Shown: positions 32,877 through 46,157 of the stretch, one piece after another | How the letters are laid out: the number at the start of each line of letters is the position of its first letter | How positions within the stretch are numbered: the stretch's first letter is position 1 | Assembly: GCA_035995165.1 (NCBI GenBank) | Contig: DASYKU010000112.1 | Location: 2,377-66,376, forward strand | DNA length: 64,000 bases | Direction: 5' to 3' | Origin: Mycobacteriales bacterium | GTDB taxonomy: Bacteria > Actinomycetota > Actinomycetes > Mycobacteriales > CADCTP01 | Notes under the pieces: generated by a model | Told to the model about the DNA's origin: nothing | The model's database searches: none | What the model saw: only the letters and a program-made list of their open reading frames with translations | Made by a program: the position numbers and the translations under genes

Positions 32877-33791
32877 TCAACTGAACCGGCGGCCGGCAAA
32901 CTCGGTCAGGCCCGGGCCGGTCACCCCGGGGTCGACGGCGTGCAGTCGACCGGCCAGCGGGGCGGCCGCCCGGGCGGCCGGGTCCAGGCCGATGTGGCCG
33001 GTGGTGATGAACAGCGTGCCGCCGTCGGCGCCGCCGAAGGCGCACGACGTCACGCCGGCCACCCCCGGTACGTCGACCGTGCCGACCAGCCGGCCGTGCG
33101 GGTCGTACCGGTGCACGGCGGCGCCGCCGTGGGCGGCCACCCACACGTGGTCCTCGTCGTCCCGGCACATGCCGTCCGGCACGGCGCCGGCCAGCTCGGC
33201 GAACGGCCGGCGACCGCGGACCGCCCCGGAGTCTGGGTCGACGTCGAACTGCCAGACCACCGGGTCCGCGCTGTCGGCGTACCACATCCGGTCGGCGGCG
33301 GCGTTCCACACCAGCCCGTTGGACACCGTGACCGCGTCCAGCACCGTGGTGAGCGACAGGTCCGGGTCCAGCCGGACCAGCCGGCCGGCCCCGGTCCGCC
33401 GGGTGTCGTACGGCATGGACCCCGCCCAGAAGCGGCCCCACGGATCACAGGTGGCGTCGTTCATCCGCAGCGAGCCGTCCGGGCTGGCCGCCGCCGTTCC
33501 GGCCGCCCCGGGCAGCGGGGTCAGCGTGCCGGCCTCCTCCAGCCAGGCCAGCCCGTCGGCGGCAGCGGCCAAGTAGCCGCCGCCGGCGACCGGGGTGATC
33601 GCCCCGACCGGGCGGTCCAGCCGGACGGTGCGCAGCACCCGAAGCCCGCCCGCGCTCCAGCCGGCCCAGCGGACGGTGCCGGCGAGGATGTCGACCCAGA
33701 TCAGCTCCTGCCGGGCGACGTGCCAGCGCGGTCCCTCGCCGAGCTCGTCACACGTGTCCGACACCGGTTCTGCGGTCCAGCGGGGCATCAT
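32877..33791 (-). CDS. SMP-30 / gluconolactonase / LRE-like family protein
   Basis: ORF 32877..33839; start at MMPRW (33791). Motifs LGEGPRW, LIWVDI, NDATCDPWGRFWAGSM, SNGLVW and PDGMCRD. Confidence 0.88.
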   Translation of the reverse strand: MMPRWTAEPVSDTCDELGEGPRWHVARQELIWVDILAGTVRWAGWSAGGLRVLRTVRLDRPVGAITPVAGGGYLAAAADGLAWLEEAGTLTPLPGAAGTAAASPDGSLRMNDATCDPWGRFWAGSMPYDTRRTGAGRLVRLDPDLSLTTVLDAVTVSNGLVWNAAADRMWYADSADPVVWQFDVDPDSGAVRGRRPFAELAGAVPDGMCRDDEDHVWVAAHGGAAVHRYDPHGRLVGTVDVPGVAGVTSCAFGGADGGTLFITTGHIGLDPAARAAAPLAGRLHAVDPGVTGPGLTEFAGRRFS

Positions 33792-33881
33792 GTCCGTATC
33801 CTCCTGGCAGCTGCCGACTCCGGCCCGACCGCCCGGCACGCGGGTCCGTGGACACCGGGACCGCGTCGATCTATGTTTGTC

Positions 33882-33894: not shown

Positions 33895-33922
33895 AGGATT
33901 GACCTCAGGAGAGCCAGCTCCG

Positions 33923-34696
33923 ATGACCAGTTCGCGGCGCTCGACGAAGAAGGACTCGGTGGCGCTCTCCCTGGCCGCGACGGAGCCGGCGACGCGCACC
34001 TCGCTGGGCGATGTGGTGGCCGAGCGGCTGCGCGAGGCCATTCTCAACGACCAGCTGTCACCGGGGCAGCACCTGCGCGAGGAGGAGATCTCCAAGACCC
34101 TCGACGTGAGCCGGGGTCCGGTGCGGGACGCCTTCCTGGTGCTGGAGCGGGAAGGGCTGATCAGCCTGTCCCGGCATCGCGGCGCCACCGTGGTCGAGCT
34201 GTCCCTGGAGGACCTCGGTGAGGTCTACAGCCTGCGCTCGGCGACCGAGGCGCTGGCGGTGCGGCTGGCGATCCGGCGCCGGCAGGCCGGTGACCTCGAC
34301 CGGCTGGAGAACAGCCTGAGTGAGTTGCAGGTCGCGATGCGCCGGAAGATCACCGAGCAGATCGCGGCCCGGCTGGACGTGAACTTCCACGACGCGATCT
34401 TCCGGGCCGCGCACCACGACCGGCTCTACAAGAGCTGGTCCAACATCCGCATGCAGGTCTACTGGTTGCTGCTGTCCCGCAACGTCGCCGGGCCGGACTG
34501 GCGGGAGAACATGGCGCAGAGCCACGCCCGGTTGCTCGACCTCATCCGGGCCGGCGACGAGAGCGAGGCCGTGGCCGCGATCGGGGATCACATCCGGTCC
34601 GCATACACCCGCATCTGGGTCGCGCTGGCCGACAACGACGGTCCGGAGACAGGCCCGTCGCAGCGGGACATCGCGGAGTCCTTCCTGCTCGACTGA
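33923..34696 (+). CDS. GntR-family transcriptional regulator (FadR/FCD subfamily), second copy
   Basis: ORF 33899..34696. Preferred start is ATG 33923, after aggagag. HTH ...LREEEISKTLDVSRGPVRDAFLVLEREGLI plus an FCD-like domain. Confidence 0.9.
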   Translation: MTSSRRSTKKDSVALSLAATEPATRTSLGDVVAERLREAILNDQLSPGQHLREEEISKTLDVSRGPVRDAFLVLEREGLISLSRHRGATVVELSLEDLGEVYSLRSATEALAVRLAIRRRQAGDLDRLENSLSELQVAMRRKITEQIAARLDVNFHDAIFRAAHHDRLYKSWSNIRMQVYWLLLSRNVAGPDWRENMAQSHARLLDLIRAGDESEAVAAIGDHIRSAYTRIWVALADNDGPETGPSQRDIAESFLLD

Positions 34697-34739: not shown

Positions 34740-34752
34740 GTTGACAATCAAC
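34740..34752. promoter_or_regulatory. palindrome GTTGA-CAA-TCAAC, candidate operator
   Basis: gttgacaatcaac lies 26 bp upstream of the FAH-operon ATG (34778). Confidence 0.5.
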
Positions 34753-34777: not shown

Positions 34778-35659
34778 ATGCGGCTGGCGAGCTTCGCGCC
34801 GCCTGGCGGCGCCGCCCGGCTCGGCGTGCTGGTCACCGCCGACGGGCCGGACGCCGTGGTGGATGTGCGCCGCGTCGACCCGCGGCTGCCCGCGGACGTG
34901 CCGGCGGTGCTGGCCGGCGGCCCGGTGGTGCTGGACCAACTGCGCCGTGCCGTCGGGGCCGCCGGCGAGGACGCCCGGCACCGGGTGGCCGACGTCGAGC
35001 TGCTGGCGCCGGTGCCGCGGCCGGGCAAGATCGTCGCGGTCGGGCTGAACTACCGCGACCACGCCGAGGAGACCGGCGACGCAATCCCCGAGGCGCCGGT
35101 CGTCTTCGCCAAGTTCCCCAGCTCGGTGACCGGTCCGTACGCCGACATCGTCCACCCGGCCGACTCGACCCGGCTGGACTACGAGGGCGAGCTCGGCGTC
35201 GTCATCGGCCGGCGCTGCCGGCACGTCGAGGAGGCCGACGCCCCCGGCGTGATCGGCGGCTACCTGGTGCTCGACGACGTCAGCGCCCGGGACGTGCAGA
35301 ACCGCAACTCCCAGTGGACGCTCGGCAAGAGCTACGACACCTTCGCGCCGATCGGACCGGCCGTGGTCACCCCGGACGAGGTCGGCGATCCGCAGGCCCT
35401 GGACATCAGCACCCACGTCAACGAGGAGCCGCGGCAGAAGTCCAACACCCGCAACATGATCTTCGGCGTGTACGAGCTGGTCAGCCGGATCAGCGCGGTG
35501 TGCACGCTGGAACCCGGCGACATCATCGCCACCGGCACCCCGGGCGGCGTCGGCATCGGCTTCGACCCCGAGCGGCTGCTGGCGGTCGGCGACGTAGTCC
35601 GGGTGACCGTGCAGGGCATCGGCACGATCGCCAACCGGGTGACGGCGGCCTCCGCGTGA
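34778..35659 (+). CDS. fumarylacetoacetate hydrolase (FAH) family protein
   Basis: ORF 34778..35659 with RBS aaggggga. Motifs GLNYRDH, YEGELGVVIG, LDDVSARD and GDIIATGTPGG. Confidence 0.9.
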   Translation: MRLASFAPPGGAARLGVLVTADGPDAVVDVRRVDPRLPADVPAVLAGGPVVLDQLRRAVGAAGEDARHRVADVELLAPVPRPGKIVAVGLNYRDHAEETGDAIPEAPVVFAKFPSSVTGPYADIVHPADSTRLDYEGELGVVIGRRCRHVEEADAPGVIGGYLVLDDVSARDVQNRNSQWTLGKSYDTFAPIGPAVVTPDEVGDPQALDISTHVNEEPRQKSNTRNMIFGVYELVSRISAVCTLEPGDIIATGTPGGVGIGFDPERLLAVGDVVRVTVQGIGTIANRVTAASA

Positions 35660-36444
35660 CCGCGCCCGGCCGGGTCGCGGTCGTCAACGGCGGCGCCCGT
35701 GGCATCGGCGCCGAGGTGTGCGGGCAGCTGGCCGCGGCCGGTGCGGCGGTGGCGGTGCTCGACATTGACGCCGGGGCGGCCGGCGAGCGGGCGGCCGAGC
35801 TGGCCGACCGCGGCGGCGCCGCGGTCGGCGTCGGCTGCGACATCGCCGACGAGGCGGCGGTGGAGGCGGCCTTCGCCCGGGTCGACGCCGAGCTGGGACC
35901 GGCCACCGTGCTGGTCAACAACGCCGGCATCAACCTGCGGCAGCCGCCGCTCGAACTGGACCTGGTCGGGTGGCACCGGACGCTGGCGGTGAACCTCACC
36001 GGCTACTTCCTCTGCGCCCGGGCGGCCGCCGCCCGGATGATTCCGGCCGGTGGCGGGTCGATCGTCAACGTGTCCTCGATCGCCGGCAGCAGCGCGCTCG
36101 GCCGGGGCAACCTCGCGTACGCGGTGTCCAAGGGCGGGGTGGACGCGCTGACCCGGGAGCTGGCGGTCGAGTGGGCCGGCGCTGGCATCCGGGTCAACGG
36201 GGTGGCTCCCTGCCAGGTCGCCACGGCCGGCTTCGTCTCGGTGGAACAGACCCGGACGGCGGCCGGCGACAGCACCGCCACCGACTACCGCCGGGGCATC
36301 CCGCTGGGCCGACCGGCCCGGCCGGAGGAGATCGCGGCGGCCGTCGTCTTCCTCGCCTCGGACGCCGCCAGCATGATCACCGGTGTGCTGCTCCCGGTGG
36401 ACGGCGGCAACCTCGCGCTCAACGCCGGCGGAACCGTCGGCTGA
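35656..36444 (+). CDS. SDR-family oxidoreductase
   Basis: C-terminal 262 aa of ORF 34723..36444. GTG at 35656 (GTGA overlap). Motifs NGGARGIG, NNAG and YAVSKGG. Confidence 0.88.
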   Translation: MTAPGRVAVVNGGARGIGAEVCGQLAAAGAAVAVLDIDAGAAGERAAELADRGGAAVGVGCDIADEAAVEAAFARVDAELGPATVLVNNAGINLRQPPLELDLVGWHRTLAVNLTGYFLCARAAAARMIPAGGGSIVNVSSIAGSSALGRGNLAYAVSKGGVDALTRELAVEWAGAGIRVNGVAPCQVATAGFVSVEQTRTAAGDSTATDYRRGIPLGRPARPEEIAAAVVFLASDAASMITGVLLPVDGGNLALNAGGTVG

Positions 36445-36498
36445 CCGGAACACCCGACAAGCACAGCACAGCCCGACAAGCAGAGCACAGGAGGACTC

Positions 36499-36744
36499 GT
36501 GGCGCGGCTCGACGTGACCGTCCCCTCGTACGGCATGACCGAGGGCGACACCTATATCCAGAAGTGGCTGGTGACGGCCGGCTCGGCGGTGGCCGAGGGG
36601 GCGCCGCTGGTGCTGGTCGAGACGGCCAAGGCCGAGACCGAGATCGAGTCGCCGGTCGCCGGCGTGGTCGGCGATCTGCTCTGCGAGGCGGACACCGAGG
36701 TCCCGCCGGGCACCGTGCTGACCTGGATCGAGAGTGTGGGCTGA
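36499..36744 (+). CDS. stand-alone lipoyl (biotinyl/lipoyl attachment) domain protein, 81 aa
   Basis: ORF 36499..36744, GTG start. Flattened beta-barrel pattern with VLVETAKAETEIESPVAGVV (candidate lipoyl-lysine in TAKAE). No E2 catalytic domain follows. Confidence 0.75.
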   Translation: MARLDVTVPSYGMTEGDTYIQKWLVTAGSAVAEGAPLVLVETAKAETEIESPVAGVVGDLLCEADTEVPPGTVLTWIESVG

Positions 36745-37799
36745 TGACGATCCTCGATCGCCAGTCGGCCGGCGGGGCCTCCTCGCCGGAGCTGGCACCG
36801 CTCGACCTGACCGGGGTGGACCGCGGGCAGGCCGAGAGCTGGCTGGCCTCGATGAGCCTGATCCGGCAGTTCGAGACGGTGGCCGAGCCGCTGGTGATGG
36901 CCGGCAAGATCCCCGGCGGCATGCACTCCGCCATCGGGCAGGAGGCGACCGCGGTCGGCGTCATCAGCGCGCTGGCCGAGGGCGACATCGTCACCGGCAC
37001 CCACCGCAGCCACCACGTCACGCTGGCCAAGGGCCTGCCGCCGCGGGAGGTGATGGCCGAGCTCTACGGCAAGGCCACCGGCTCGCTCGGCGGCCGGGGC
37101 GGCCACATGCACCTGGCCGACGTCGGCCGCGGCCACTTCGGCTCCAACGGGATCGTCGGCGCCGGCCTCGGCCTCGCCCTCGGCGCCGCGCTCGGCTCCT
37201 CGGTCGGCCACCGCGGCCAGGTCGCGGTCGGCTTCTTCGGCGACGGCGCCGCCAACATCGGCCGGGTCTGGGAGTACGTCAACCTGGCCGTGGTGTGGCA
37301 GCTGCCGCTGGTGGTGGTGTGTGAGAACAACCTCTACGCGGTGGAGACCCCGTACGCGCAGGTGACCGGTGGCGGCGACATCGCCGCGCGGGCCCGCGGC
37401 TTCGGGCTGCCGGCGGAGAAGGTGGACGGGCAGGACGTGGCCGCGATGCACCGGGCCGCCGCCGCCGCGGTGCAGCGGGCCCGGGCCGGCGGGGGCCCGA
37501 CCTTTATCGAATCGCTGACCTACCGACTCGGCGGGCACGACGTGGGGGACCGGGAGACGTACCGGACCCGGGAGGAGGTGGAGCGCTGGCGGGCGGCCCA
37601 GGACCCGGTGCTCCGGCTCGCCGCCGCGGCCCAGCTGGCCGGGCTGCTGTCGGCCGACGACGTGGCCGCCGCGCTGGCCGCCGCCGAGAAGGCGGTCGCC
37701 GAGGCGGTCGAGTACGCCGAGGCCTCGCCGTTCCCCGACCCCGGCACGCTGCTGACCGGCGTGACCGCCACCGACCTGCGGATCCGGAGCAACCCATGA
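36744..37799 (+). CDS. ThDP-dependent 2-oxoacid/acetoin dehydrogenase E1 component, alpha subunit
   Basis: C-terminal 351 aa of ORF 35970..37799. ATG at 36744 shares its A with the upstream TGA. Motifs HSAIGQEA, GGRGGHMH, GDGAANIG and CENNLYA. Confidence 0.9.
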   Translation: MTILDRQSAGGASSPELAPLDLTGVDRGQAESWLASMSLIRQFETVAEPLVMAGKIPGGMHSAIGQEATAVGVISALAEGDIVTGTHRSHHVTLAKGLPPREVMAELYGKATGSLGGRGGHMHLADVGRGHFGSNGIVGAGLGLALGAALGSSVGHRGQVAVGFFGDGAANIGRVWEYVNLAVVWQLPLVVVCENNLYAVETPYAQVTGGGDIAARARGFGLPAEKVDGQDVAAMHRAAAAAVQRARAGGGPTFIESLTYRLGGHDVGDRETYRTREEVERWRAAQDPVLRLAAAAQLAGLLSADDVAAALAAAEKAVAEAVEYAEASPFPDPGTLLTGVTATDLRIRSNP

Positions 37800-38776
37800 G
37801 CCCGCGCGTGACCCTGTCCCAGGCCTATCGGCAGGGCCTGGCCGAGGAGATGCGGGCCGACCCGTCGATCCTGGTCTACGGCACCGACCTGTTCGAGCGC
37901 GGCGGCCACTGGGGCCAGGTCCGCGGGCTCGGCGACGAGTTCGGCCGGGACCGGGTGCGCAACGCGCCGATCTCCGAGGCGGCCATGGTCGCGGCCGGGG
38001 TCGGCGCGGCGATGAACGGCCTGCGCCCGGTGGTCGACCTCAACTTCATCGACTTCGCCTTCGGCGCGATGGACGAGATCGTCAACCAGGCGGCCAAGGT
38101 GCGCTACATGTGGGGCGCGCCGATGCCGCTGGTCATCCGCGGCACCAACGGGGTGGCCGGGGGAGGGGCGCAGCACAACAACTCGATCGAGTCCTGGTTC
38201 GCGCACACCCCCGGGCTGCTGGTGGCGATGCCCTCGACGCCGGCCGACACCAAGGGGCTGATCAAGTCCGCGCTGCGCGGCCAGGACCCGGTCATCTTCC
38301 TCATGCACAAGCTGCTGGCCGGGCTGCGCGGGGAGGTCGGCGGCGAGGAGGACCTGGTGCCGTTCGGGCGGGGCGTCGTCCGCCGGCCGGGCCGGGATGT
38401 CACCATCGCCACCTACGGGGTGACGGTGTCCCGGTCGGTGGCCGCGGCCGAGCAGCTGGCCGCGGAGGGGGTCGAGGTGGAGGTGCTGGACCTGCGTACG
38501 GTGGCGCCGCTCGACCTGGAGCTGGTGGAGGACAGCGTCCGCCGCACCCGCCGGCTGGTGGTGGTGACCGAGGCGCCGCGGCACGGCGGGATCGGCGCCG
38601 AGATCGCGGCCGCGCTGGCCGAGTCGCTGCACGGCGAGCTGGACGGGCCGGTGCTGCGGGTCGGCGCGCCGCACGTGCCCACCCCGCATAGCCCCACCCT
38701 GCTTGCCGCGGCCACCCCGACCGCGGAGGACATCGCCCGGGCGGTGCGCCTGGCCGTACCGGCCCGTGCCGCCTGA
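37796..38776 (+). CDS. 2-oxoacid/acetoin dehydrogenase E1 component, beta subunit
   Basis: ORF 37796..38776 (ATGA overlap). Motifs RVRNAPISEAAM and EVEVLDLRTVAPLD. Confidence 0.92.
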   Translation: MSPRVTLSQAYRQGLAEEMRADPSILVYGTDLFERGGHWGQVRGLGDEFGRDRVRNAPISEAAMVAAGVGAAMNGLRPVVDLNFIDFAFGAMDEIVNQAAKVRYMWGAPMPLVIRGTNGVAGGGAQHNNSIESWFAHTPGLLVAMPSTPADTKGLIKSALRGQDPVIFLMHKLLAGLRGEVGGEEDLVPFGRGVVRRPGRDVTIATYGVTVSRSVAAAEQLAAEGVEVEVLDLRTVAPLDLELVEDSVRRTRRLVVVTEAPRHGGIGAEIAAALAESLHGELDGPVLRVGAPHVPTPHSPTLLAAATPTAEDIARAVRLAVPARAA

Positions 38777-39503
38777 GCCGGCCGCCGGACCGCCGGTCGC
38801 GGTGGTGACCGGCGGGGCCCGGGGGATCGGGGCGGCCGTCGCCGCCGGCCTGCGCGCGGACGGGTACGCGGTGGCCACCCTGGACCTGCTGCCGGCCGAC
38901 CCGCCGCCGGGCCACCTGCACCTGGTCGCCGACGTCGCCGACGCCGGCGCGGTGACGGCCGCGGTGGAGCAGGTGGCCGACCGATACGGCCGGATCGACG
39001 CGCTGGTCAACAACGCCGGCATCATCGACGTGCACGCGGTGCACGACACCCCGGAGGATGTCTGGGACCGGGTGATCGCGGTGAACCTCAAGTCCGTCTA
39101 CCTGCTGTCGCGGGCGGTGATCCCGCGGCTGCCGGCGGGCGGCAGCATCGTCAACATCGCATCCGTGCACGCGCTGGCCACCGTGCCGCGGGCGGCGGCG
39201 TACGCGGCCAGCAAGGGCGCCGTGCTGGCGCTGACCCGGCAGATGGCGCTGGATTACTACGACGCCGGGATCCGGGTCAACGCGGTCGTGGTCGGCAGCG
39301 TCGAGACCGAGATGTCGGTGCGGCACGGGGCGGGCATGGCCCGGGACGGCGTTCGGGTGGCCGCGTCGGGCGGCGCGATCGGCCGGACCGCGGAGCCGGC
39401 CGAGGTGGCCGAGGCGGTGCGGTTCCTGGTCTCGCCGCGGGCGTCGTTCGTCACCGGGTCGCCGTTCGTGGTGGACGGTGGGATGCTGGCCCGCCTCGTC
39501 TGA
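38766..39503 (+). CDS. SDR-family oxidoreductase
   Basis: ORF 38703..39503. Preferred start is GTG 38766 (11-nt overlap with E1 beta). Motifs TGGARGIG, NNAG and YAASKGA. Confidence 0.85.
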   Translation: MPPEPAAGPPVAVVTGGARGIGAAVAAGLRADGYAVATLDLLPADPPPGHLHLVADVADAGAVTAAVEQVADRYGRIDALVNNAGIIDVHAVHDTPEDVWDRVIAVNLKSVYLLSRAVIPRLPAGGSIVNIASVHALATVPRAAAYAASKGAVLALTRQMALDYYDAGIRVNAVVVGSVETEMSVRHGAGMARDGVRVAASGGAIGRTAEPAEVAEAVRFLVSPRASFVTGSPFVVDGGMLARLV

Positions 39504-39506
39504 GCC

Positions 39507-40466
39507 TCAGCGGGAGCCGCGCACGGCCAGGTTGCCGTGCTCGATCCCGCCCTGCCCGAGCCAGCCCAGCAGGTCCTCGACGGTCCAGCTGGCCAGCCGC
39601 CACATGGACCGCTCCGAGTACGCGGCCACGTGCGGGCTGAACAGCGTGTTCGGCGCCGCCAGCAGCGGCGAGCCGGCCGGCAGCGGCTCGGTGCCGAAGA
39701 CGTCCAGGCCGGCCCCGCCGAGGTGGCCGGAGACGAGCAGCTCGGCCAGCGCGTCCTCGTCCACGATGCCGCCCCGGGCCACGTTGACCACTACCGCGCC
39801 GGCCGGCAGCCGGCCCAGCTCGGCCCGGCCGAGCAACCCCCGGGTGGCGTCGGTGAGCGGCGAGTGCACGCTCACCAGGGCGCTGCGGTCGAGCAGCGCG
39901 TCGAGGTCGTCGACCTGACGCACCGCCGGCGGCAGCCGGCGCGCGTACGGGTCGTAGGCGATCACCTCGCGGACGAGCGGGGCGGCCAGTCGGGCGGTCT
40001 CGGCGCCGATCCGGCCGCAGCCGACCAGGCCCAGCGTCAGCTCGTCCAGCGGTGCCAGCGGGGTCAGCGCGAACGGTCCCTGCCAGCCGCCGCGGACGAA
40101 CCGGTCCGAGTACGGCAGTCTGCGTTGCAGCGCCAGCAGCATCGCGACGGCCTGGGTGGCCACCTCGGTCGCTCCGTACCCGGGCTGGTTGACCACCGTG
40201 ATGCCCAGCTCGGCGCAGGTGTCCAGGTCGATGGAGTCCAGCCCGACCCCGGTCCGGCCGATCGCCCGCACCGACGGGGCGAGGCCGCGCAGCGCCGGGG
40301 CGTCCAGCGCGTGGGTGGCGACCACGACAGCGGCGGCGCCGTAGGTCGCGGCGGGATCGGCCAGGTCGGCGACCCGCAGCGCACAGCGGTCGCGGTAGCG
40401 CTCGACCACCGCGTCGGGGTCGGGAAAGGTGCCGGTGGCGATCACCAGCAGCGGCCGGTCGGTCAT
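39507..40466 (-). CDS. D-isomer-specific 2-hydroxyacid dehydrogenase family protein
   Basis: ORF 39507..40466. Motifs GLVGCGRIG, NVARGGIVD and LDVFGTEP...SPHVA. Confidence 0.88.
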   Translation of the reverse strand: MTDRPLLVIATGTFPDPDAVVERYRDRCALRVADLADPAATYGAAAVVVATHALDAPALRGLAPSVRAIGRTGVGLDSIDLDTCAELGITVVNQPGYGATEVATQAVAMLLALQRRLPYSDRFVRGGWQGPFALTPLAPLDELTLGLVGCGRIGAETARLAAPLVREVIAYDPYARRLPPAVRQVDDLDALLDRSALVSVHSPLTDATRGLLGRAELGRLPAGAVVVNVARGGIVDEDALAELLVSGHLGGAGLDVFGTEPLPAGSPLLAAPNTLFSPHVAAYSERSMWRLASWTVEDLLGWLGQGGIEHGNLAVRGSR

Positions 40467-41539
40467 GGGGTCCTCTCGTCAGTGGGAAGCAGGGCGAACC
40501 GGCCGAGCTCGGCGCCGGCGGGGCCGAGCAGTGCGGTGACCTCGAGGCGAATGGTGTCCGGCACCGGGATGCCCGCCGTGCTCCGGGTCGTTCGGGCGGT
40601 GGTCTCGACCTCGCCGGGCAGGAACACCGCCGGCTCCCGGCCGCCGCCCGGGGCCTCGTGCACCCGGTCGGCGAACGCGGCCGCGCCGGCGGCGAACCCG
40701 GCCGGGTCGGTGAAGGCATCCACCGACAGAGCCAGCAGGACGGTGCCGTTGCCGCCGCCGTAGTCCGGCATGGGCGCCGCGCCCATTCCGGACAACAGCC
40801 CGCCGACCAGCTCGATCATGAAGCTCAGCCCGCTGCCCTTGTGGCCGCCGAAGGGCAGCAGGGCGCCGCCGGCGTAGAGGTCGGCGGGGTCCGTGCTGGG
40901 CCGGCCGCCGGCGTCGATCAAGGTGCCGGGCGCGACCGGCTCGGCCCGGGCCAGGCTGAGGCGGACCTTGCCCTCGGCGGCGGCGGCGGTGGAGAAGTCG
41001 AGCACCAGCGCCGGGCCGCCGGCCCGCGGCGCCGCCCACGCCAGCGGGTTGGTGCCGAAGGTGCGCCGGCTGCCGCCGCTGGGCGCGACGATCGGCCCGG
41101 AGTTGCAGAAGGCCAGGCCGACGCAGCCGGCGCCGGCCAGCGTCTCGACGTACTCGCCGAGCCGGCCGATGTGGTTGCACCGGGTGATGGTCACCGCGCT
41201 CACTCCGTGCTCGGCGGCCAGCTCGGCCGCGGTCCGGGTGGCCAGCCGGGCGGCCGGTTGCCCCAACCCCCAGTGCCCGTCCACCACCGCGGTGCCGCCG
41301 CGGGTGCGGGCCCGCTCGGGCCGGCCGGCCGGGTCGACCTGGCCGTTGGCGATCCAGCCGGCGTACTGGAGCAGCCGCTGCACGCCGTGCGAGTCGTGCC
41401 CCCGCAGATTGGCCGTGACTAGGGCGTCCGCGGTGATCGCGGCCAGGTCGGCCGGGGTGCCCAGCGCCGCCAGCACCCGCCGGCAGACCGCGTCCAGCTC
41501 GGCCGCGGCGAAGCTGGTCTCCGCCGATCTATCCGTCAT
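40463..41539 (-). CDS. Ldh_2 family oxidoreductase (malate/L-lactate/sulfolactate dehydrogenase type 2)
   Basis: ORF 40463..41539. Motifs LRGHDSHGV, GTNPLAWAAP and GGHKGSGLSFMIELV. ATGA overlap with the downstream gene. Confidence 0.88.
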   Translation of the reverse strand: MTDRSAETSFAAAELDAVCRRVLAALGTPADLAAITADALVTANLRGHDSHGVQRLLQYAGWIANGQVDPAGRPERARTRGGTAVVDGHWGLGQPAARLATRTAAELAAEHGVSAVTITRCNHIGRLGEYVETLAGAGCVGLAFCNSGPIVAPSGGSRRTFGTNPLAWAAPRAGGPALVLDFSTAAAAEGKVRLSLARAEPVAPGTLIDAGGRPSTDPADLYAGGALLPFGGHKGSGLSFMIELVGGLLSGMGAAPMPDYGGGNGTVLLALSVDAFTDPAGFAAGAAAFADRVHEAPGGGREPAVFLPGEVETTARTTRSTAGIPVPDTIRLEVTALLGPAGAELGRFALLPTDERTP

Positions 41540-41803: not shown

Positions 41804-43177
41804 GTGACTGGACCACGAGCGAGGCGCGTAGCCCCGCTGGCCCTCGCGCTGGCGGCCGCCCTCGTCTTGACGGCTTGTGGCTCGGACTCCAAGGACTCCA
41901 CGGAGTCCGGCGGGTCCGGGTCGGGCGACGTGGCGAAGGAGATCACCATCTGGTCGAACTCCAACGTGTTCTGGGACTGGCAGAAGGCCAACCTGGCACC
42001 GTTCACCCAGCAGACCGGGATCAAGGTGAACTACACCCAGATCCCCGACGCCAGCATCATCGACAAGACGGCGCTGGCGCAGCGCTCGAAGTCCGACGAG
42101 TTCGCGATGTACGAGGGCCCGACCTCGCTGATCGCGCAGGACGTCCAGCTCACCGGTGGCGGCACCGACCTCAAGCCGTACGTCGACAACACCTCGCTGA
42201 CCGGTTCCGACTTCAACTTCAGCGACTTCGCCAAGGGCGGCATCAAGGACTGCACGTTCAAGGGCACGCTGCACTGCCTGCCGGTGTTCGTCGACGGCGG
42301 CGTGCTGGCGGTGAACAAGAAGCTGCTGTCCCAGGCCGGCGTCACCAAGTCGCCCACGACCTGGGCCGAGACGATCGCGGCGGCTGACGCGGTGACCCAG
42401 AAGACCGGCACGCCCGGCTGGTGCACCCGGGGCAGCCAGGCCGGCGCGGCCATCGCCACCGCCAACCAGATGCTCAGCTACTACATCCCGTTCAACGCCA
42501 GCAACCAGGGCTTCTTCGTCGACCAGAACTACAAGTCCCTGCTCGACTCGCCCGGCGCGGTGCAGTGGGCGAACGACTACCAGCACCTGATGACCAAGGA
42601 CGCCCCCAAGGGCATCGGCACCTACACCCTGACCAACTGCCAGAACGACTTCGACCAGGGCAAGGTCGCCATGATGTGGGACGGCATAGTGGTGTTCAAC
42701 AAGAACGAGCTGAGCCCGGCGGCCGGGTCGCCGCTGGCCGGCAACGTCGACTTCGTCGAGCCGTCCTGCCCGGGCAGTGACCCGTGCGTCGCGACCGGTC
42801 CGTGGGGGATGTTCCTCAACCCGCGGGCGAGCAAGCCGCAGCAGGCCGCGGCCTGGAAGCTCATGCAGTACCTGTCCTCGCCGAAGGTGCTGACCGACCA
42901 GATCACGGCGACCGGCGTGCCGGCCCTGGCGGTCCGCAACTCGACCACCGAGCAGACCTTCCCGGGGGTCCCGGCCAGCGTGCTGACCGCGCTGAAGTGG
43001 GTCGGCGCGAACTCGGTGCCCAACCCGTTCCCGCCGTCGTCGGTGTTCAACGAGAGTCAGGACGCCTACCAGACGTCGATCTCCCAGATCGTCGCCGGCA
43101 AGGACGTCAACGCGGCCATGAAGGCCGCGGCCGACGGCCAGAACCAGGTGTTCAAGCAGGCCGGCCTGCAGAACTGA
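41804..43177 (+). CDS. carbohydrate ABC transporter substrate-binding lipoprotein (CUT1, family 1 SBP)
   Basis: ORF 41804..43177, GTG after ggaagagg. Signal peptide with lipobox LTAC. Confidence 0.88.
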   Translation: MTGPRARRVAPLALALAAALVLTACGSDSKDSTESGGSGSGDVAKEITIWSNSNVFWDWQKANLAPFTQQTGIKVNYTQIPDASIIDKTALAQRSKSDEFAMYEGPTSLIAQDVQLTGGGTDLKPYVDNTSLTGSDFNFSDFAKGGIKDCTFKGTLHCLPVFVDGGVLAVNKKLLSQAGVTKSPTTWAETIAAADAVTQKTGTPGWCTRGSQAGAAIATANQMLSYYIPFNASNQGFFVDQNYKSLLDSPGAVQWANDYQHLMTKDAPKGIGTYTLTNCQNDFDQGKVAMMWDGIVVFNKNELSPAAGSPLAGNVDFVEPSCPGSDPCVATGPWGMFLNPRASKPQQAAAWKLMQYLSSPKVLTDQITATGVPALAVRNSTTEQTFPGVPASVLTALKWVGANSVPNPFPPSSVFNESQDAYQTSISQIVAGKDVNAAMKAAADGQNQVFKQAGLQN

Positions 43178-43188
43178 GCGGAGCCCCG

Positions 43189-43227
43189 GCGGTGGCCGGC
43201 CGACGTGTCCCGTCGGCCGGTCACCGC
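43189..43227 (+). terminator. intercistronic hairpin, 16-bp stem with one G-U pair
   Basis: gcggtggccggccgac-gtgtccc-gtcggccggtcaccgc lies between the SBP and the first permease gene. Confidence 0.5.
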
Positions 43228-43262
43228 GCGTTCCGCCTTCCGCCGTCGAACAGGGGCAGCAC

Positions 43263-44225
43263 ATGAGCAACGACCTATCCGCCGACCCCGTCCCGCTGTC
43301 CCGCGGGGAGACGCGGGGCGAGCCCCGGCAGCGAGTGCGCGGGCCGGCCCGGGGTCTGCTGGCCCGCCTGGACCGGCACTTCTTCGCGCTGGCGGTGCTG
43401 CCCTCGTTCCTGGCTGTCTTCCTGGTCACGGTGCTGCCGTTCCTGGCCGGGCTGGGGCTGAGCTTCTCCAGCATCAGCAGCACGCACGACGGGATTTTCC
43501 CGCTCACCCTGCACAACTACAGCCGCATCGCCGGTGACGACCAGGCGAAGACCGTCCTGCGCAACACCTTCGAGTACGCCGGTGCCGCGGTGCTGCTCGA
43601 GGTCGTGCTCGGTGTCCTGCTGGCCGTGCTGCTGTCCCAGAAGAGCCGGATCATGCCGGGCTTCCGGGTGGTCTACTTGCTGCCGCTCACCGCGGCCAGC
43701 GTGGTCGCGGCGACGAGCTGGGGCGCGCTGCTGAATACCTCGCAGGGCTGGATCAACTACTGGCTCGGCCTGCTGCACCTGGGCCAGCCGAACTGGCTGG
43801 CCTCGACCAAGCTGGCGATGCCGTCGGTGGTCATCACCGAGCTGTGGAGCGGGGTGCCGGTGGTGGCCCTGCTGGTGCTGGCCGCGCTGCTCGGCGCGCC
43901 GCAGGACCCGATCGAGGCGGCCATGGTCGACGGGGCCACTGCCTGGCAGCGGTTCCGGTATGTCACGCTGCCGGCGGTCCGGCCGGTCATCGCGCTGGCC
44001 GCGCTGCTGCGGGTGGTGGCCGCGTTCCAGCAGTTCGCGCTGTTCCAGATCCTCACCGGCGGCGGCCCGGGACTGTCCACCACGGTGCTCAACTACTACG
44101 TCTACAAGCAGGCGTTTGCGTTCAACAACATCGGTTACGGGGCCGCGCTCGCCACCTTGATGGTCGGCCTGATGGCCATACCACTGGGGCTGCTGTTCGC
44201 CGCCTCGCGGAGGGGGCGGGCATGA
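43263..44225 (+). CDS. carbohydrate ABC transporter permease (MalF-like)
   Basis: ORF 43263..44225. Six TM helices. EAA loop ...DPIEAAMVDGATAWQRFRYVTLP. Confidence 0.9.
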   Translation: MSNDLSADPVPLSRGETRGEPRQRVRGPARGLLARLDRHFFALAVLPSFLAVFLVTVLPFLAGLGLSFSSISSTHDGIFPLTLHNYSRIAGDDQAKTVLRNTFEYAGAAVLLEVVLGVLLAVLLSQKSRIMPGFRVVYLLPLTAASVVAATSWGALLNTSQGWINYWLGLLHLGQPNWLASTKLAMPSVVITELWSGVPVVALLVLAALLGAPQDPIEAAMVDGATAWQRFRYVTLPAVRPVIALAALLRVVAAFQQFALFQILTGGGPGLSTTVLNYYVYKQAFAFNNIGYGAALATLMVGLMAIPLGLLFAASRRGRA

Positions 44226-45118
44226 CCGCGACGGATCGGGGCACGGCGGCGGTCCCGGCGGTGGCGGCGGCCCGGCGCCGACGCGGGCGGCGCGCGACCC
44301 AGCGGTCGCTGGCCGGCTCGATCGTGCTGTGGGTGCTGCTCGGGCTCGGGGCGGTGTTCATCCTGCTGCCGCTGGTGTGGATGCTGTCCACCGCGTTCAA
44401 GCAGCCGGACGACGCCTTCGCGGTGCCGCCGCACTGGCTGTCGAAGCCGACCGGGGCCAACTTCTCCGAGCTGCTCACCGGCGAGTTCCGCAAGTACGTG
44501 CTCAACTCACTGCTGGTCTCGGTGGTGACCACCGTGATCGCACTGGCCTTCGGGATCCCGGCCGGCTACGCGTTCGCCCGGACCCGGATCCGCGGCGGGA
44601 AGTTCATCCAGGCCTGGTTCGTGTTGGCCTACGTGATCCCACCGGTGATCTTCATCATCCCGCTCTACATCATCTACCAGCACGCGCACCTGCTGGACAG
44701 CTACACGGGGCTGGTGCTCGCGTACGAGACCGGGATCCTGCCGTTCACAGTCTGGTTGATGCGGGCGTACATGTCCGAGGTGCCGAGGGAGCTGGACGAG
44801 GCGGCCTGGATCGACGGCTGCTCGAAGCTGGGCGCGCTGTGGCGGGTGGTGCTGCCGACCGTGCTGCCGGGGATCACCACGGTCGGGCTGATGGTCGGGC
44901 TGTCGGCCTGGGGCGAGTACTTCGGGGCCGTGATCCTCACCGGCCCGAAGACGCAGACCGCGCCGGTGGCGGTCAACTCGTACGTCGGCCTGCTCAGCTC
45001 GGACTGGAGCAAGCTGGCCGCCGCCGGCGTGGTCGTCATCGTGCCCGCGCTGCTGGCCACCGTCTTCGTGCAGCGCGGGTTCGCCCGGGGGCTGTCCTTC
45101 GGCGCCGTCAAGCAGTGA
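44222..45118 (+). CDS. carbohydrate ABC transporter permease (MalG-like)
   Basis: C-terminal 298 aa of ORF 43844..45118. ATG at 44222 (ATGA overlap). Loop ...ELDEAAWIDGCSKLGALWRVVLP. No ATPase gene is present in the locus. Confidence 0.9.
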   Translation: MTATDRGTAAVPAVAAARRRRGRRATQRSLAGSIVLWVLLGLGAVFILLPLVWMLSTAFKQPDDAFAVPPHWLSKPTGANFSELLTGEFRKYVLNSLLVSVVTTVIALAFGIPAGYAFARTRIRGGKFIQAWFVLAYVIPPVIFIIPLYIIYQHAHLLDSYTGLVLAYETGILPFTVWLMRAYMSEVPRELDEAAWIDGCSKLGALWRVVLPTVLPGITTVGLMVGLSAWGEYFGAVILTGPKTQTAPVAVNSYVGLLSSDWSKLAAAGVVVIVPALLATVFVQRGFARGLSFGAVKQ

Positions 45119-46088
45119 GCAGCTCCGCGGCGAAGCGCAGCTGGGCGGCCCGCTGGAAGCCGCCGCCGCCCTCGTGCCCGTTGTACGGGTAGACCTCGAT
45201 CGCCGTCCGCGGGTGCGCCCACCGGTTGTACGCAGCGAACACCGTCGACGGCGGGCACACCGCGTCCATCAGCGCGACCGAGAACAGCGCCGGGGCGCTC
45301 GCCCGGGCGGCGAAGTGCACCCCGTCGAAGTACGACAGCACCTCGAAGGTGCGCTCCACCGCGTCCCGGTGGCCGGCCAGGTAGTGGGTGATCTCCACGT
45401 ACGGCCGGCTGTCGGTGATCTCGGTGGCCCGGCGCATGCAGGACAGGAACGGCACGTCCGGCATGGCCCCGAGCAGCCCGGGCACCAGCCCGGCCACCGC
45501 GACCGTGATGCCGCCGCCCTGGCTGCCGCCGGTGACGATCACCCGGTCCGGGTCCAGCCGCGGGTGCGCGCCGGCCACCTCGGTCGCCCGTACCGCGTCG
45601 GTGAACACCCGGCGGTAGAAGTAACTGTCGGGGGATTCGACGCCCATGGTCAGGAAGCCCGGCGCGTGCGGGCCGGTTGCCCCGGCGTTGTCCGGGGTGA
45701 CGCCGACGCTGTGGCCGGCGCTGCCCTGGCCGCGGGTGTCCACCACCAGGTGCGCGTAGCCGGCCGCGGCCCACAGCAGGTGGTCGTGCGGCAGCCCGCG
45801 GCCGCCCGCGTAGCCGATGAACTCGACCACCGTCGGCAGCGGTCGCTCGGTGCCGCGGGGGAGGACCAGCCAGGCCGCGACCCGGTCGCCGCCGAAGCCG
45901 GTGAACCGCACGTCGAGGACGTCGACCAGGGCCAGCCCGGTGTCCACCGGGACGAATTCCGGGGCCAGCTCGTGCTCTCGGGCCGCGCCCAGCGTGCCGG
46001 CCCAGAACTCGTCGAAGCCGGCCGGCGCGGGCAGCTCGGGGCGGAAGTCCCGCAGCTCCGGCAGCGGCAGGTCGAACTGGACGGCCAT
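45108..46088 (-). CDS. acetylxylan esterase / cephalosporin-C deacetylase (CE7, AXE1 family)
   Basis: ORF 45108..46088. Motifs RGQG, the nucleophile motif GGSQGG and C-terminal ...YPYNGHEGG. Its 3' end overlaps the permease 3' end by 11 nt. Confidence 0.88.
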   Translation of the reverse strand: MAVQFDLPLPELRDFRPELPAPAGFDEFWAGTLGAAREHELAPEFVPVDTGLALVDVLDVRFTGFGGDRVAAWLVLPRGTERPLPTVVEFIGYAGGRGLPHDHLLWAAAGYAHLVVDTRGQGSAGHSVGVTPDNAGATGPHAPGFLTMGVESPDSYFYRRVFTDAVRATEVAGAHPRLDPDRVIVTGGSQGGGITVAVAGLVPGLLGAMPDVPFLSCMRRATEITDSRPYVEITHYLAGHRDAVERTFEVLSYFDGVHFAARASAPALFSVALMDAVCPPSTVFAAYNRWAHPRTAIEVYPYNGHEGGGGFQRAAQLRFAAELLTA

Positions 46089-46120: not shown

Positions 46121-46157
46121 CAGATTGGCTGGGACTCTACCCGCGCCGGGAGGTCTC

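What the first reader, a model, noticed from the sequence alone, without database searches (positions are those of the whole stretch)
34778..39503. E1 alpha/beta 2-oxoacid dehydrogenase genes with a free-standing 81-aa lipoyl domain but no E2 core or E3
The operon order is FAH hydrolase, SDR, an 81-aa lipoyl-domain protein (36499-36744, candidate lipoyl-Lys in VETAKAETEI), E1 alpha, E1 beta, SDR. All junctions are tight or overlapping. The lipoyl ORF stops with a TGA whose final A is the first base of the E1 alpha ATG, so it is not the N-terminus of a frameshifted E2. No 2-oxoacid_dh acyltransferase domain or dihydrolipoamide dehydrogenase is encoded anywhere in the window. Canonical PDH/BCKDH/acetoin complexes need the E2 core for assembly and acyl transfer. 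A soluble lipoyl carrier charged by E1 would need a different acyl acceptor or hydrolase and a trans-acting E3. This is an unusual minimal architecture in a catabolic rather than biosynthetic context.
Basis: partly seen in the sequence, partly recalled or inferred. Interest (0 to 1): 0.6.

Follow-up and report, generated by a model that had tools for sequence, protein, structure and literature searches.

The report
E2-less E1 with free lipoyl carrier
A sugar-acid breakdown operon of a high-GC actinobacterium carries the first enzyme (E1) of a pyruvate-dehydrogenase-type complex and a tiny stand-alone lipoic-acid carrier but no core (E2) or E3; the layout is real and kept in a dozen species, yet its chemistry is untested.

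Summary
An 81-aa lipoyl-domain ORF (36499-36744) has a TGA that overlaps the ATG of E1 alpha. E1 beta and an SDR follow with overlapping junctions. No E2 catalytic domain or E3 lies anywhere on the 83.7-kb contig.

It is not a local gene loss. Eleven other species-level genomes (Actinocrinis and uncultured Actinomycetes MAGs) keep the same ~81-aa free ORF, coupled to E1 alpha in another frame, inside the same sugar-acid gene set. None has E2 or E3 within 10 kb. Their E1 beta proteins form one clade. Its sister is a paralogous cluster with a full but frameshifted E2 exactly where the lipoyl ORF sits, so the carrier is probably a truncated E2.

E1 keeps its ThDP motif and catalytic His and Glu residues. 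The carrier models as a lipoyl domain with Lys44 at the hairpin tip. E2 cores, Lpd and a lipoyl ligase are encoded elsewhere in the genome.

My best reading is that E1 loads an acyl group from a pathway keto-acid onto the soluble carrier, and housekeeping E2 and E3 finish the cycle in trans. Substrate and acyl acceptor are inferred only.

This scan has flagged similar E2-less modules on other DNA. From memory, Haloferax volcanii oadh2 (2002) is a published precedent of unknown function.

The parts
32877..33839 (-). SMP-30/gluconolactonase-family lactonase (SGL)
   Evidence: Pfam SGL 1.7e-65. A homologue is in 5 of 11 orthologous loci.
33899..34696 (+). GntR/FCD regulator upstream of the operon
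   Evidence: Pfam GntR plus FCD. Conserved at 55-73% identity upstream of the module in 9 of the 11 orthologous loci, and not hit in the other two, whose DNA may not reach that far.
34740..34746 (+). GTTGACA motif (TTGACA -35-like, part of the inverted repeat GTTGAcaaTCAAC), 32 nt before the FAH start. Likely promoter or operator of the operon.
   Evidence: 8 matches in the window against 3.0 expected. Five lie in intergenic gaps of the 32.8-51 kb locus.
34778..35659 (+). FAH-family hydrolase, closest to L-2,4-diketo-3-deoxyrhamnonate hydrolase
   Evidence: Pfam 9e-75. NCBIfam NF053535 scores 240.8 bits, below its cut-off of 500. Best PDB match is 8GSR at 3e-60. Present in only 2 of 12 loci.
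35656..36444 (+). SDR1, a hexonate/gluconate-5-dehydrogenase-like enzyme. An SDR gene lies directly upstream of the lipoyl ORF in every orthologous locus.
   Evidence: Pfam adh_short_C2 3e-59. Best PDB matches are 4G81 'putative hexonate dehydrogenase' and gluconate 5-dehydrogenases. Synteny: the best hit is SDR1 at 54-67% in 8 loci, and an SDR2-like hit at 37-39% in L022, L023 and L029.
36499..36744 (+). Free-standing 81-aa lipoyl carrier (LIP). The candidate lipoyl-lysine is Lys44 (36628-36630) in ETAKAE.
   Evidence: Pfam 8.3e-16. The best NCBIfam hits are E2 lipoyl domains and AcoC. The AF2 model has pLDDT 90, and the best PDB matches are human E2/E3BP lipoyl domains at TM 0.85. 18 homologues of 69-82 aa were found, and no fused form.
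36744..37799 (+). E1 alpha (ThDP-binding subunit)
   Evidence: E1_dh 8.5e-72. TIGR03182 scores 306 bits, below its cut-off of 393.85. GDG...NN and the GH histidine are conserved against human PDHA1.
37796..38776 (+). E1 beta
   Evidence: Transket_pyr plus Transketolase_C. The best NCBIfam hit is PRK11892, the lipoyl-bearing E1 beta type, matched over model positions 142-459. The Glu59 and His128 equivalents are conserved.
38766..39503 (+). SDR2, aldose/glucose 1-dehydrogenase-like, the last gene of the operon
   Evidence: Pfam. NCBIfam 'aldose dehydrogenase' 4e-54. PDB 3VTZ glucose 1-dehydrogenase 6e-44. Start read.
39507..40466 (-). D-isomer-specific 2-hydroxyacid dehydrogenase (HAD2). In 9 of 11 orthologous loci it sits directly upstream of the SDR gene and LIP.
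   Evidence: Pfam 2-Hacid_dh_C 6.5e-48. Synteny.
40463..41539 (-). Ldh_2-family malate/L-lactate/sulfolactate-type dehydrogenase (LDH2)
   Evidence: Pfam Ldh_2 8e-99. PDB matches. Conserved at 54-60% in 9 of 11 orthologous loci.
41804..45118 (+). CUT1-type ABC sugar importer: a solute-binding protein and two permeases
   Evidence: Pfam SBP_bac_1 and two BPD_transp_1. Conserved at 54-69% beside the module in 8 of 11 loci.
45108..46088 (-). CE7 acetyl esterase (AXE1). In 7 orthologous loci it lies directly after E1 beta.
   Evidence: Pfam AXE1 1.6e-105. Synteny.
46125..47015 (+). DHDPS/KDG-aldolase-family class I aldolase or dehydratase, conserved with the module
   Evidence: Pfam DHDPS 1.6e-28. 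NCBIfam KDG aldolase 5e-30, below its cut-off. Synteny.

Best explanation
This is a genuine, conserved 2-oxoacid-dehydrogenase module without an E2 core. It consists of a heterotetramer-type ThDP E1 (alpha and beta) and a soluble 81-aa lipoyl carrier, translationally coupled. They are co-transcribed with sugar-acid dehydrogenases under a GntR regulator, in a horizontally acquired sugar-catabolic island.

Proposed cycle:
1. SDR1, the 2-hydroxyacid dehydrogenases and, where present, the FAH hydrolase turn an imported sugar or aldonate into a 2-oxo acid or alpha-hydroxy-keto acid.
2. E1 cleaves it on ThDP and reductively acylates lipoyl-Lys44 of the free carrier.
3. The acyl-dihydrolipoyl carrier diffuses to a housekeeping E2 catalytic core encoded elsewhere, which passes the acyl group to CoA.
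4. Housekeeping Lpd re-oxidises the carrier.

The carrier most probably arose from an E2 gene lying upstream of E1 alpha that lost its subunit-binding and catalytic domains.

Shown here: the gene architecture, its conservation, intact catalytic motifs, the lipoyl fold, and E2, E3 and a lipoyl ligase elsewhere in the genome. Inferred only: lipoylation, the substrate, and who discharges and re-oxidises the carrier.
For: - Architecture and domains.
- No E2 or E3 on the 83.7-kb contig.
- Conservation: 11 orthologous loci keep an SDR gene, LIP, E1 alpha and E1 beta in that order, usually with GntR and HAD2 upstream, plus LDH2, DHDPS, lactonase or SDR2 and the ABC importer. None has an E2cat or E3 hit within 10 kb.
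- Free-standing form: in 10 of them an intact LIP ORF of 81-82 aa ends in TGA next to or overlapping an ATG/GTG, with E1 alpha in a different frame. The eleventh, L029, keeps the same junction but only the C-terminal two thirds of LIP in frame.
- LIP sequence: 22 invariant columns, including the lysine and its flanks. Median pairwise dN/dS is 0.24, and 0.29 for the closest pair.
- LIP structure: AF2 pLDDT 90, TM 0.85 to human E2 lipoyl domains, with Lys44 in the turn between strands 36-41 and 46-50.
- E1 motifs: GDG-X26-NN and the GH histidine in alpha. Glu59 and His128 equivalents in beta.
- Trans partners in the genome: three canonical E2 genes, a Kgd-type fusion and a lipoyl-less E2cat ORF; six Pyr_redox_dim genes, two of which lie beside or near an E2; one LplA/LipB gene. 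All five LIP-bearing MAGs tested hold 4-7 E2 matches elsewhere.
- Origin: in the E1 beta tree the 12 LIP-first loci form one clade (SH-aLRT 97). Its sister (support 100) is a cluster with lipoyl, PSBD-like and catalytic (DHRTIDG) regions in the LIP position.
- Established biochemistry, from my own knowledge: free lipoyl domains are good E1 substrates, and E2 cores and E3 accept free dihydrolipoyl species in vitro.
Against: - No experiment shows expression, lipoylation or activity.
- The lysine sits in AKA, not the usual DKA.
- E1 alpha and beta score below the NCBIfam PDH equivalog cut-offs, so the substrate is probably not simply pyruvate, and I could not identify it.
- No specific trans E2 partner co-varies with the module. 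The lipoyl-less E2cat ORF also occurs in relatives that lack LIP.
- A diffusing carrier would be kinetically poor compared with a tethered arm.
- The sister cluster's E2 is frameshifted, which may be nanopore assembly error. The tree is a quick search with SH-aLRT support only, and the sister sits on a long branch.
Confidence: 0.5

Rival explanations
1. The E1-plus-LIP loading step is the same, but a non-E2 enzyme removes the acyl group. It could be hydrolysed or transferred by an alpha/beta-hydrolase, as in hydrolase-fold AcoC. Candidates are the CE7 esterase that follows E1 beta in most orthologous loci and the Abhydrolase_1 gene at 53900-54622. The net product would be a free acid rather than an acyl-CoA.
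For: - LIP hits the AcoC model PRK14875 at 6.9e-13.
- AXE1 lies directly after E1 beta in 7 orthologous loci.
- An Abhydrolase_1 gene recurs in the window and in L027, and hits the AcoC hydrolase region at about 1e-13.
Against: - The AcoC hit of the hydrolase is generic: PcaD-type models score as well or better, and only about 100 residues match.
- AXE is missing beside the module in L024 and L027, and lies 6 kb away on the other strand here.
- CE7 esterases more naturally deacetylate the imported sugar.
- Hydrolysis wastes the thioester.
Confidence: 0.2
2. LIP is a dispensable relic. E1 docks on a housekeeping E2 complex through that complex's subunit-binding domain and uses its tethered lipoyl arms.
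For: E2 cores with subunit-binding domains exist elsewhere in every genome tested. The module descends from an E2-bearing cluster.
Against: - LIP is kept as an intact coupled ORF with an invariant lysine region in 11 of the 12 species, and broken only in L029.
- dN/dS is well below 1 for close pairs.
- The island is foreign to this genus, so its E1 is unlikely to fit the host's E2 binding domain.
Confidence: 0.12
3. E1 acts non-oxidatively, as a decarboxylase or carboligase on a sugar keto-acid, and LIP plays a regulatory or redox-sensing role rather than carrying acyl groups.
For: The substrate is unknown. E1 scores below the PDH equivalog cut-offs. ThDP enzymes are versatile (general knowledge).
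Against: The alpha-subunit His and the beta His128 equivalent, which I recall from Geobacillus E1p mutagenesis as needed for reductive acylation and decarboxylation, are both kept. Tight coupling of LIP to E1 alpha argues for a stoichiometric partner.
Confidence: 0.08
4. The small ORF is a chance ORF or a decaying fragment and has no function.
For: High-GC DNA yields many spurious ORFs.
Against: GC3 is 0.95 with a proper Shine-Dalgarno sequence. Pfam and fold matches are strong. Orthologues occur in 11 species and in 18 protein clusters.
Confidence: 0.03

Closest known systems
Haloferax volcanii oadh2 operon (oadhA2, oadhB2 and an unattached lipoyl domain; Wanner & Soppa 2002, van Ooyen & Soppa 2007)
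   Same: E1 alpha, E1 beta and a free lipoyl-domain gene with no E2 or E3 in the operon, and an acetoin-dehydrogenase-like E1. [quoted passage not shown]
   Different: It is archaeal, has the gene order A-B-L rather than L-A-B, and has a different genomic context. The operon composition is from my memory and an earlier scan note, because the primary paper was not held. Homology to this module was not tested.
Acetoin dehydrogenase enzyme system (AcoA/AcoB/AcoC/AcoL)
   Same: A catabolic alpha2beta2 ThDP E1 that loads a lipoyl group, sits next to SDR dehydrogenases and may lack an E3 gene of its own. LIP hits the AcoC model PRK14875 over residues 5-79.
   Different: AcoC carries a catalytic domain (an E2 core or an alpha/beta hydrolase fold) fused to the lipoyl domain. 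Here the lipoyl domain is alone, and no such domain is encoded beside it.
Heterotetrameric-E1 PDH and BCKDH complexes (human PDHA1/PDHB, Geobacillus E1p, Thermus E1b)
   Same: The best solved relatives are 2OZL/1NI4 for alpha at 5e-53 and 1UM9/1W85 for beta at 6e-72 to 5e-68. The ThDP motif and catalytic His and Glu residues are conserved.
   Different: There is no E2 core, subunit-binding domain or E3 at the locus. The scores fall below the PDH equivalog cut-offs.
Alphaproteobacterial PDH E1 beta with an N-terminal lipoyl domain (NCBIfam PRK11892)
   Same: A lipoyl domain is associated with E1 rather than only with E2. The window's E1 beta has this model as its best NCBIfam hit, and LIP matches the model's lipoyl part.
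   Different: There the lipoyl domain is fused to E1 beta, and a complete E2 and E3 are still present (my knowledge). Here it is a separate gene upstream of E1 alpha.
QncN/QncL/QncM and SclQ1-4 (glycolicacyl unit from a ketose phosphate)
   Same: An E1-like ThDP enzyme and a lipoyl domain used outside central metabolism on a sugar-derived substrate, with no E3 of their own (PMC6335953).
   Different: That system is biosynthetic. Its lipoyl domain is fused to an acyltransferase domain, and an ACP accepts the acyl group. None of these features is present here.
GcvH and LbpA soluble lipoyl proteins
   Same: A small free lipoyl protein shuttling between separate enzymes without an E2 scaffold (PMC6067878 came up but I did not read it).
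   Different: They belong to a different family (GCV_H) and have different partner chemistry.

Membership tests
Lipoyl domain (Pfam Biotin_lipoyl, lipoyl subtype) | Sequence match to the family over the whole domain | tested here: met
   PF00364 at 8.3e-16, covering 5-75 of 81 aa. The best NCBIfam hits are E2 lipoyl domains (4.8e-14) and AcoC, with biotin carriers about 1e-7.
Lipoyl domain (Pfam Biotin_lipoyl, lipoyl subtype) | Flattened beta-barrel with the modified Lys at the tip of a beta-hairpin | tested here: met
   AF2 pLDDT 90, with Lys44 in the turn between strands 36-41 and 46-50. The top PDB matches are lipoyl domains at TM 0.82-0.87.
Lipoyl domain (Pfam Biotin_lipoyl, lipoyl subtype) | Canonical DKA motif around the lysine | tested here: not met
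   The motif is AKA (ETAKAE) across the family, and TKA in two members (P0015 and L019). From my own knowledge the Asp is not strictly needed for lipoylation.
Lipoyl domain (Pfam Biotin_lipoyl, lipoyl subtype) | Covalent lipoylation of the lysine | not testable with these tools
   The genome has one LplA/LipB-type gene, but the modification itself needs mass spectrometry.
Heterotetrameric ThDP-dependent E1 of 2-oxoacid dehydrogenases | E1_dh alpha subunit, and a beta subunit with Transket_pyr plus Transketolase_C | tested here: met
Heterotetrameric ThDP-dependent E1 of 2-oxoacid dehydrogenases | ThDP motif GDG...NN, the alpha active-site His, and the beta Glu59 and His128 equivalents | tested here: met
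   Alignments to human PDHA1 and Geobacillus E1 beta.
Pyruvate dehydrogenase E1 (NCBIfam equivalogs TIGR03182 and PRK09212) | Score above the curated equivalog cut-off | tested here: not met
   Alpha scores 306.4 against a cut-off of 393.85. Beta scores 291.3 against 321.
Canonical 2-oxoacid or acetoin dehydrogenase complex operon | An E2 with a catalytic (2-oxoacid_dh or hydrolase) domain fused to the lipoyl domain, beside E1 | tested here: not met
   No PF00198 match on the contig, none in the 11 orthologous loci, and no fused relatives found.
Canonical 2-oxoacid or acetoin dehydrogenase complex operon | E3 (Lpd) available | tested here: met
   Not at the locus, but six Pyr_redox_dim genes lie elsewhere, two of them beside or near an E2.
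Free-lipoyl E1 operons of the Haloferax oadh2 type | E1 alpha, E1 beta and a free lipoyl-domain gene, with no E2 or E3 in the operon | tested here: met
Free-lipoyl E1 operons of the Haloferax oadh2 type | Common descent with the haloarchaeal operon | not tested
   No haloarchaeal sequence was at hand. The E1 beta tree suggests an origin of its own from an E2-E1 alpha-E1 beta cluster. Other Actinomycetota carry the free ORF downstream instead.

The most novel reading that the evidence does not exclude
The free carrier is the hub of an undescribed lipoate-dependent step in non-phosphorylative sugar-acid catabolism. E1 would split a keto-aldonate or acyloin sugar acid (made by SDR1 and the 2-hydroxyacid dehydrogenases) and park the fragment on a diffusible lipoyl protein. 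A non-E2 enzyme would then discharge it. That would be a soluble 'lipoyl carrier protein' logic, analogous to ACP, evolved by truncating an E2.
Probability: 0.2. Interest if true: 0.8.

Novelty: new variant of a known kind. Interest (0 to 1): 0.5.

Why it matters
Textbook 2-oxoacid dehydrogenases depend on an E2 core that scaffolds the complex and tethers the swinging lipoyl arm. A conserved module that keeps E1 and the arm but has discarded the core asks whether a lipoyl domain can work as a free, diffusible carrier in vivo, and which enzyme then takes the acyl group.

This locus adds three things. It gives a defined catabolic setting (a sugar-acid regulon). It gives a clear evolutionary route, with a sister cluster holding an E2 in the same position. 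It also gives a small, clean gene set (an SDR, LIP, E1 alpha and E1 beta) that could be reconstituted in vitro.

Such modules are routinely mis-annotated as 'pyruvate dehydrogenase E2', as the source names show. That distorts metabolic reconstructions of soil Actinomycetes.

Tried and rejected
I took contexts from the search for related loci and the genome search instead.
- Orphan E2 partner. The genome has a lipoyl-less E2 catalytic ORF (C137:21307-22158, DHNVVDG motif). It also occurs in relatives without LIP and is missing from three of five LIP-bearing MAGs, so I rejected it as a specific partner.
- Split AcoC. The Abhydrolase_1 gene at 53900-54622 hits the AcoC model only generically, so this stays a weak rival.
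- Substrate from neighbours. PDB and NCBIfam names for SDR1, SDR2, FAH, LDH2 and DHDPS point to sugar-acid chemistry, and for FAH to the diketo-deoxyrhamnonate hydrolase type. They give no specific substrate. No aldonate dehydratase was found in the locus.
- Fused forms. The 'longer' protein search gave only distant E2s at 36-39% identity. The long hits of the profile search were multi-lipoyl E2 fragments.
- Operator. A two-half-site pattern found nothing. The single heptamer GTTKACA marks intergenic gaps, but it may simply be a -35 box.
- Selection. dN/dS for distant pairs approaches 1, but this is unreliable at GC3 above 0.9.
- Literature. Seven full-text searches found no paper on a bacterial E2-less E1 plus free lipoyl protein. 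Wanner & Soppa 2002 could not be opened.

Full report
**Observation**

The window is about 72% G+C, so I called genes by third-position GC and checked them against Pfam and NCBIfam. The operon reads:
- FAH hydrolase, 34778-35659
- SDR1, 35656-36444
- an 81-aa Biotin_lipoyl ORF (LIP), 36499-36744
- E1 alpha, 36744-37799
- E1 beta, 37796-38776
- SDR2, ending at 39503

LIP has an AGGAGG just upstream of its GTG, and its TGA shares a base with the E1 alpha ATG. The best SDR2 start is GTG 38766, which overlaps the E1 beta stop. Every junction is therefore tight except the 54-nt spacer before LIP. Neither the E2 catalytic family nor the E3 dimerisation family matches anywhere on the contig. tblastn with the genome's own E2 and E3 proteins is blank over all 83,704 bp.

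**Surroundings**

The operon lies in a sugar-catabolic island:
- a gluconolactonase-family gene and a GntR/FCD regulator upstream
- a D-2-hydroxyacid dehydrogenase and an Ldh_2-family dehydrogenase convergent downstream
- then a CUT1 ABC importer, a CE7 acetyl esterase, a DHDPS-family aldolase and an AGE epimerase
- further out two Zn-ADHs, a ribulose-phosphate-epimerase-family gene, Gfo/Idh/MocA, a xylose-isomerase-like TIM barrel and an alpha/beta hydrolase

The FAH protein is closest to L-2,4-diketo-3-deoxyrhamnonate hydrolase (PDB 8GSR, 3e-60). SDR1 is closest to hexonate and gluconate-5-dehydrogenases. SDR2 is closest to aldose 1-dehydrogenases. A GTTGACA motif (-35-like, partly palindromic) sits in five intergenic gaps of the island, one of them 32 nt before the FAH start. 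None lies in the SDR1-LIP spacer, so LIP and E1 are probably transcribed with FAH and SDR1.

**Is it a local loss?**

No. The 81-aa protein has 18 homologues of 69-82 aa in the large protein collection. Sources annotate them as 'E2', yet all are single-domain. A pattern scan of one genome per species returned 11 loci (L019-L029: an Actinocrinis MAG and uncultured Actinomycetes MAGs). In all of them an SDR gene, LIP, E1 alpha and E1 beta are syntenic. GntR and HAD2 usually lie upstream, and LDH2, DHDPS, a lactonase or SDR2, often AXE1, and the ABC importer are nearby. No E2 catalytic or E3 hit occurs within 10 kb.

In 10 of the 11 loci the LIP frame opens at M-S/A-K/R-V/I-E/D and closes with TGA after 81-82 codons, with E1 alpha in a different frame and usually an ATGA or GTGA overlap. 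In L029 only the C-terminal two thirds is in frame, which suggests a frameshift. LIP keeps 22 invariant columns, including the lysine region. It is under purifying selection in close comparisons: dN/dS is 0.29 to the nearest orthologue and the median is 0.24. Distant pairs are unreliable at this codon bias.

The family is rare. A profile search of 1.84 billion representatives found only two 82-aa clusters of this type among the top hits. No orthologue of LIP or of this E1 was found in the genomes searched:
- 60 relatives, searched with LIP
- 15 genomes of the same family, searched with E1 beta, best 48% identity
- 400 genomes drawn across the phylum, searched with E1 alpha, best 51%

The nearest copy, in the Actinocrinis MAG, has 87% identical E1 beta. 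The island was therefore most likely acquired horizontally. The tallies include a few unpublished genomes (G022; G083, G182, G236, G301, G379). No sequence-level claim rests on them.

**Origin**

In one LIP-bearing MAG, about 15 kb upstream of its LIP-first cluster, lies a paralogous cluster: an ABC importer, HAD2, then E1 alpha (56% identity) and E1 beta (57%). In the LIP position it has a gene with a lipoyl domain, a PSBD-like SPRQRRLARLAA stretch and a catalytic domain with an intact DHRTIDG motif, broken by two frameshifts.

An E1 beta tree of 75 sequences puts the 12 LIP-first loci in one clade (SH-aLRT 97) and this E2-bearing paralogue as its sister (100). Canonical E1 alpha-E1 beta-E2 sets lie elsewhere. 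The simplest reading is that LIP is what remains of an upstream E2 after loss of its binding and catalytic domains.

Two caveats apply. The tree is a quick search and the sister sits on a long branch. The frameshifts may be nanopore errors, although neighbouring genes on the same contig are intact.

Free lipoyl ORFs also occur downstream of E1 beta in other Actinomycetota. Three of the 29 best E1 alpha homologue loci have ORFs of 78, 81 and 90 aa. For two of these I fetched 20 kb of flank and found no E2cat hit and SDR genes nearby. Dropping the core has therefore happened more than once.

**Competence of the parts**

E1 alpha keeps GDG-X26-NN and the active-site GH histidine when aligned to human PDHA1. 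E1 beta keeps the cofactor-activating Glu (PISEAAM) and the His128 equivalent (AQHNNS) when aligned to Geobacillus E1 beta. Both subunits score below the NCBIfam PDH equivalog cut-offs, which suggests a substrate other than plain pyruvate.

LIP folds with pLDDT 90 into the flattened barrel of lipoyl domains. Its best solved matches are human E2/E3BP lipoyl domains at TM 0.85, and Lys44 lies in the hairpin turn. The motif is AKA rather than DKA.

The genome encodes, elsewhere:
- three canonical E2s (C5, C60, C114), a Kgd-type fusion and a lipoyl-less E2 catalytic ORF with an intact DHxxxDG motif
- six Pyr_redox_dim (Lpd-type) genes, one directly beside the C114 E2 and one about 6 kb from the C5 E2
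- one LplA/LipB-type gene

**Mechanism**

I commit to the following, with confidence about 0.5. The dehydrogenases of the operon convert an imported sugar or aldonate into a 2-oxo acid or alpha-hydroxy-keto acid. E1 cleaves it on ThDP and reductively acylates the free lipoyl carrier. A housekeeping E2 core transfers the acyl group to CoA, and Lpd re-oxidises the carrier.

The architecture, conservation, motifs and availability of partners are shown. Lipoylation, the substrate and the discharge step are inferred. They lean on established in-vitro behaviour of free lipoyl domains with E1, E2 cores and E3, which is my own knowledge.

The rivals are:
- discharge by a hydrolase, AcoC-like (0.2)
- LIP as a relic, with E1 docking on host E2 (0.12)
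- a non-oxidative E1 (0.08)
- a non-functional ORF (0.03)

I could not identify the substrate. The locus has no recognisable aldonate dehydratase, and FAH is present in only 2 of 12 loci. The strictly conserved neighbours are an SDR gene (SDR1-like in most loci) and, usually, the two 2-hydroxyacid dehydrogenases. That pattern fits a keto-aldonate or acyloin substrate at least as well as pyruvate.

**Comparison with the known**

I found no paper on a bacterial E2-less E1 with a free lipoyl protein in seven full-text searches. [quoted passage not shown]

From memory, it encodes E1 alpha, E1 beta and an unattached lipoyl domain without E2 or E3 (Wanner & Soppa 2002). That paper was not held. A 2021 review table lists oadhAB2 as acetoin-dehydrogenase-like with no substrate identified (PMC8305020).

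Other relatives in logic are:
- the acetoin dehydrogenase system
- alphaproteobacterial E1 beta with a fused lipoyl domain (NCBIfam PRK11892, the best hit of this E1 beta)
- the QncN/L/M and SclQ systems (PMC6335953)

Earlier notes show that this scan has flagged E2-less E1 plus lipoyl modules many times on other DNA. I confirmed only the part I could test: free ORFs after E1 beta in other Actinomycetota.

**Verdict**

The feature is real and conserved. It is a new variant (lipoyl-first, sugar-acid regulon, derived from an upstream E2) of a known but biochemically unsolved kind. Interest is moderate (0.5). The open question, how a lipoyl arm works without its core, is directly testable with four small proteins.

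Noticed in passing
G000 contig C137:21307-22158 (L005:967-1818): A 283-aa ORF that consists only of a 2-oxoacid_dh catalytic domain, with an intact DHNVVDG motif and no lipoyl domain. It sits next to a Band_7 gene and a LuxR-type response regulator. It also occurs in some relatives that lack the free lipoyl gene.
   Followed up: partly
L105:7861-11026 (G065:C4, about 15 kb upstream of the L028 cluster): A paralogous E2-E1 alpha-E1 beta cluster whose E2 (lipoyl, PSBD-like and catalytic regions) is split over three frames while E1 alpha and E1 beta are intact. This is either an E2 caught in decay or nanopore indel errors.
   Followed up: partly
window 36453-36490: A 19-nt tandem direct repeat with one mismatch (CCCGACAAGCACAGCACAG / CCCGACAAGCAGAGCACAG) fills the SDR1-LIP spacer and runs into the Shine-Dalgarno sequence of the lipoyl ORF.
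   Followed up: no
window 33882, 34740, 41769, 46101, 50931: GTTKACA heptamers sit in five intergenic gaps of the island (8 in the window against 3.0 expected). At 34740 the motif is part of GTTGAcaaTCAAC. It could be a shared GntR operator or simply -35 boxes.
   Followed up: partly
L031:10001-10950 (Amycolatopsis pithecellobii): After two E1 alpha/beta pairs, a lipoyl domain lies in an 83-aa open frame, directly followed by a separate E2 catalytic-domain match. This may be a naturally split E2.
   Followed up: no
L024:11995-13718: In one orthologous locus a phosphotriesterase-family lactonase and an acetoacetate-decarboxylase-family gene replace the acetyl esterase between E1 beta and the Ldh_2 gene.
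   Followed up: no
L168:10394-14230 and L169:9050-11408: Other Actinomycetota carry E1 alpha, E1 beta and a free lipoyl ORF of 76-81 aa, with no E2 catalytic match in 20 kb. In L168 two SDR genes follow the lipoyl ORF directly. L169 has 43% G+C and a second E1 pair flanked by SDR genes.
   Followed up: partly
L027:818-2326 and L024:441-1925: A conserved gene of about 500 aa with no Pfam match lies beside the importer/DHDPS arm of the orthologous loci. I did not check whether it has a counterpart in the window.
   Followed up: no
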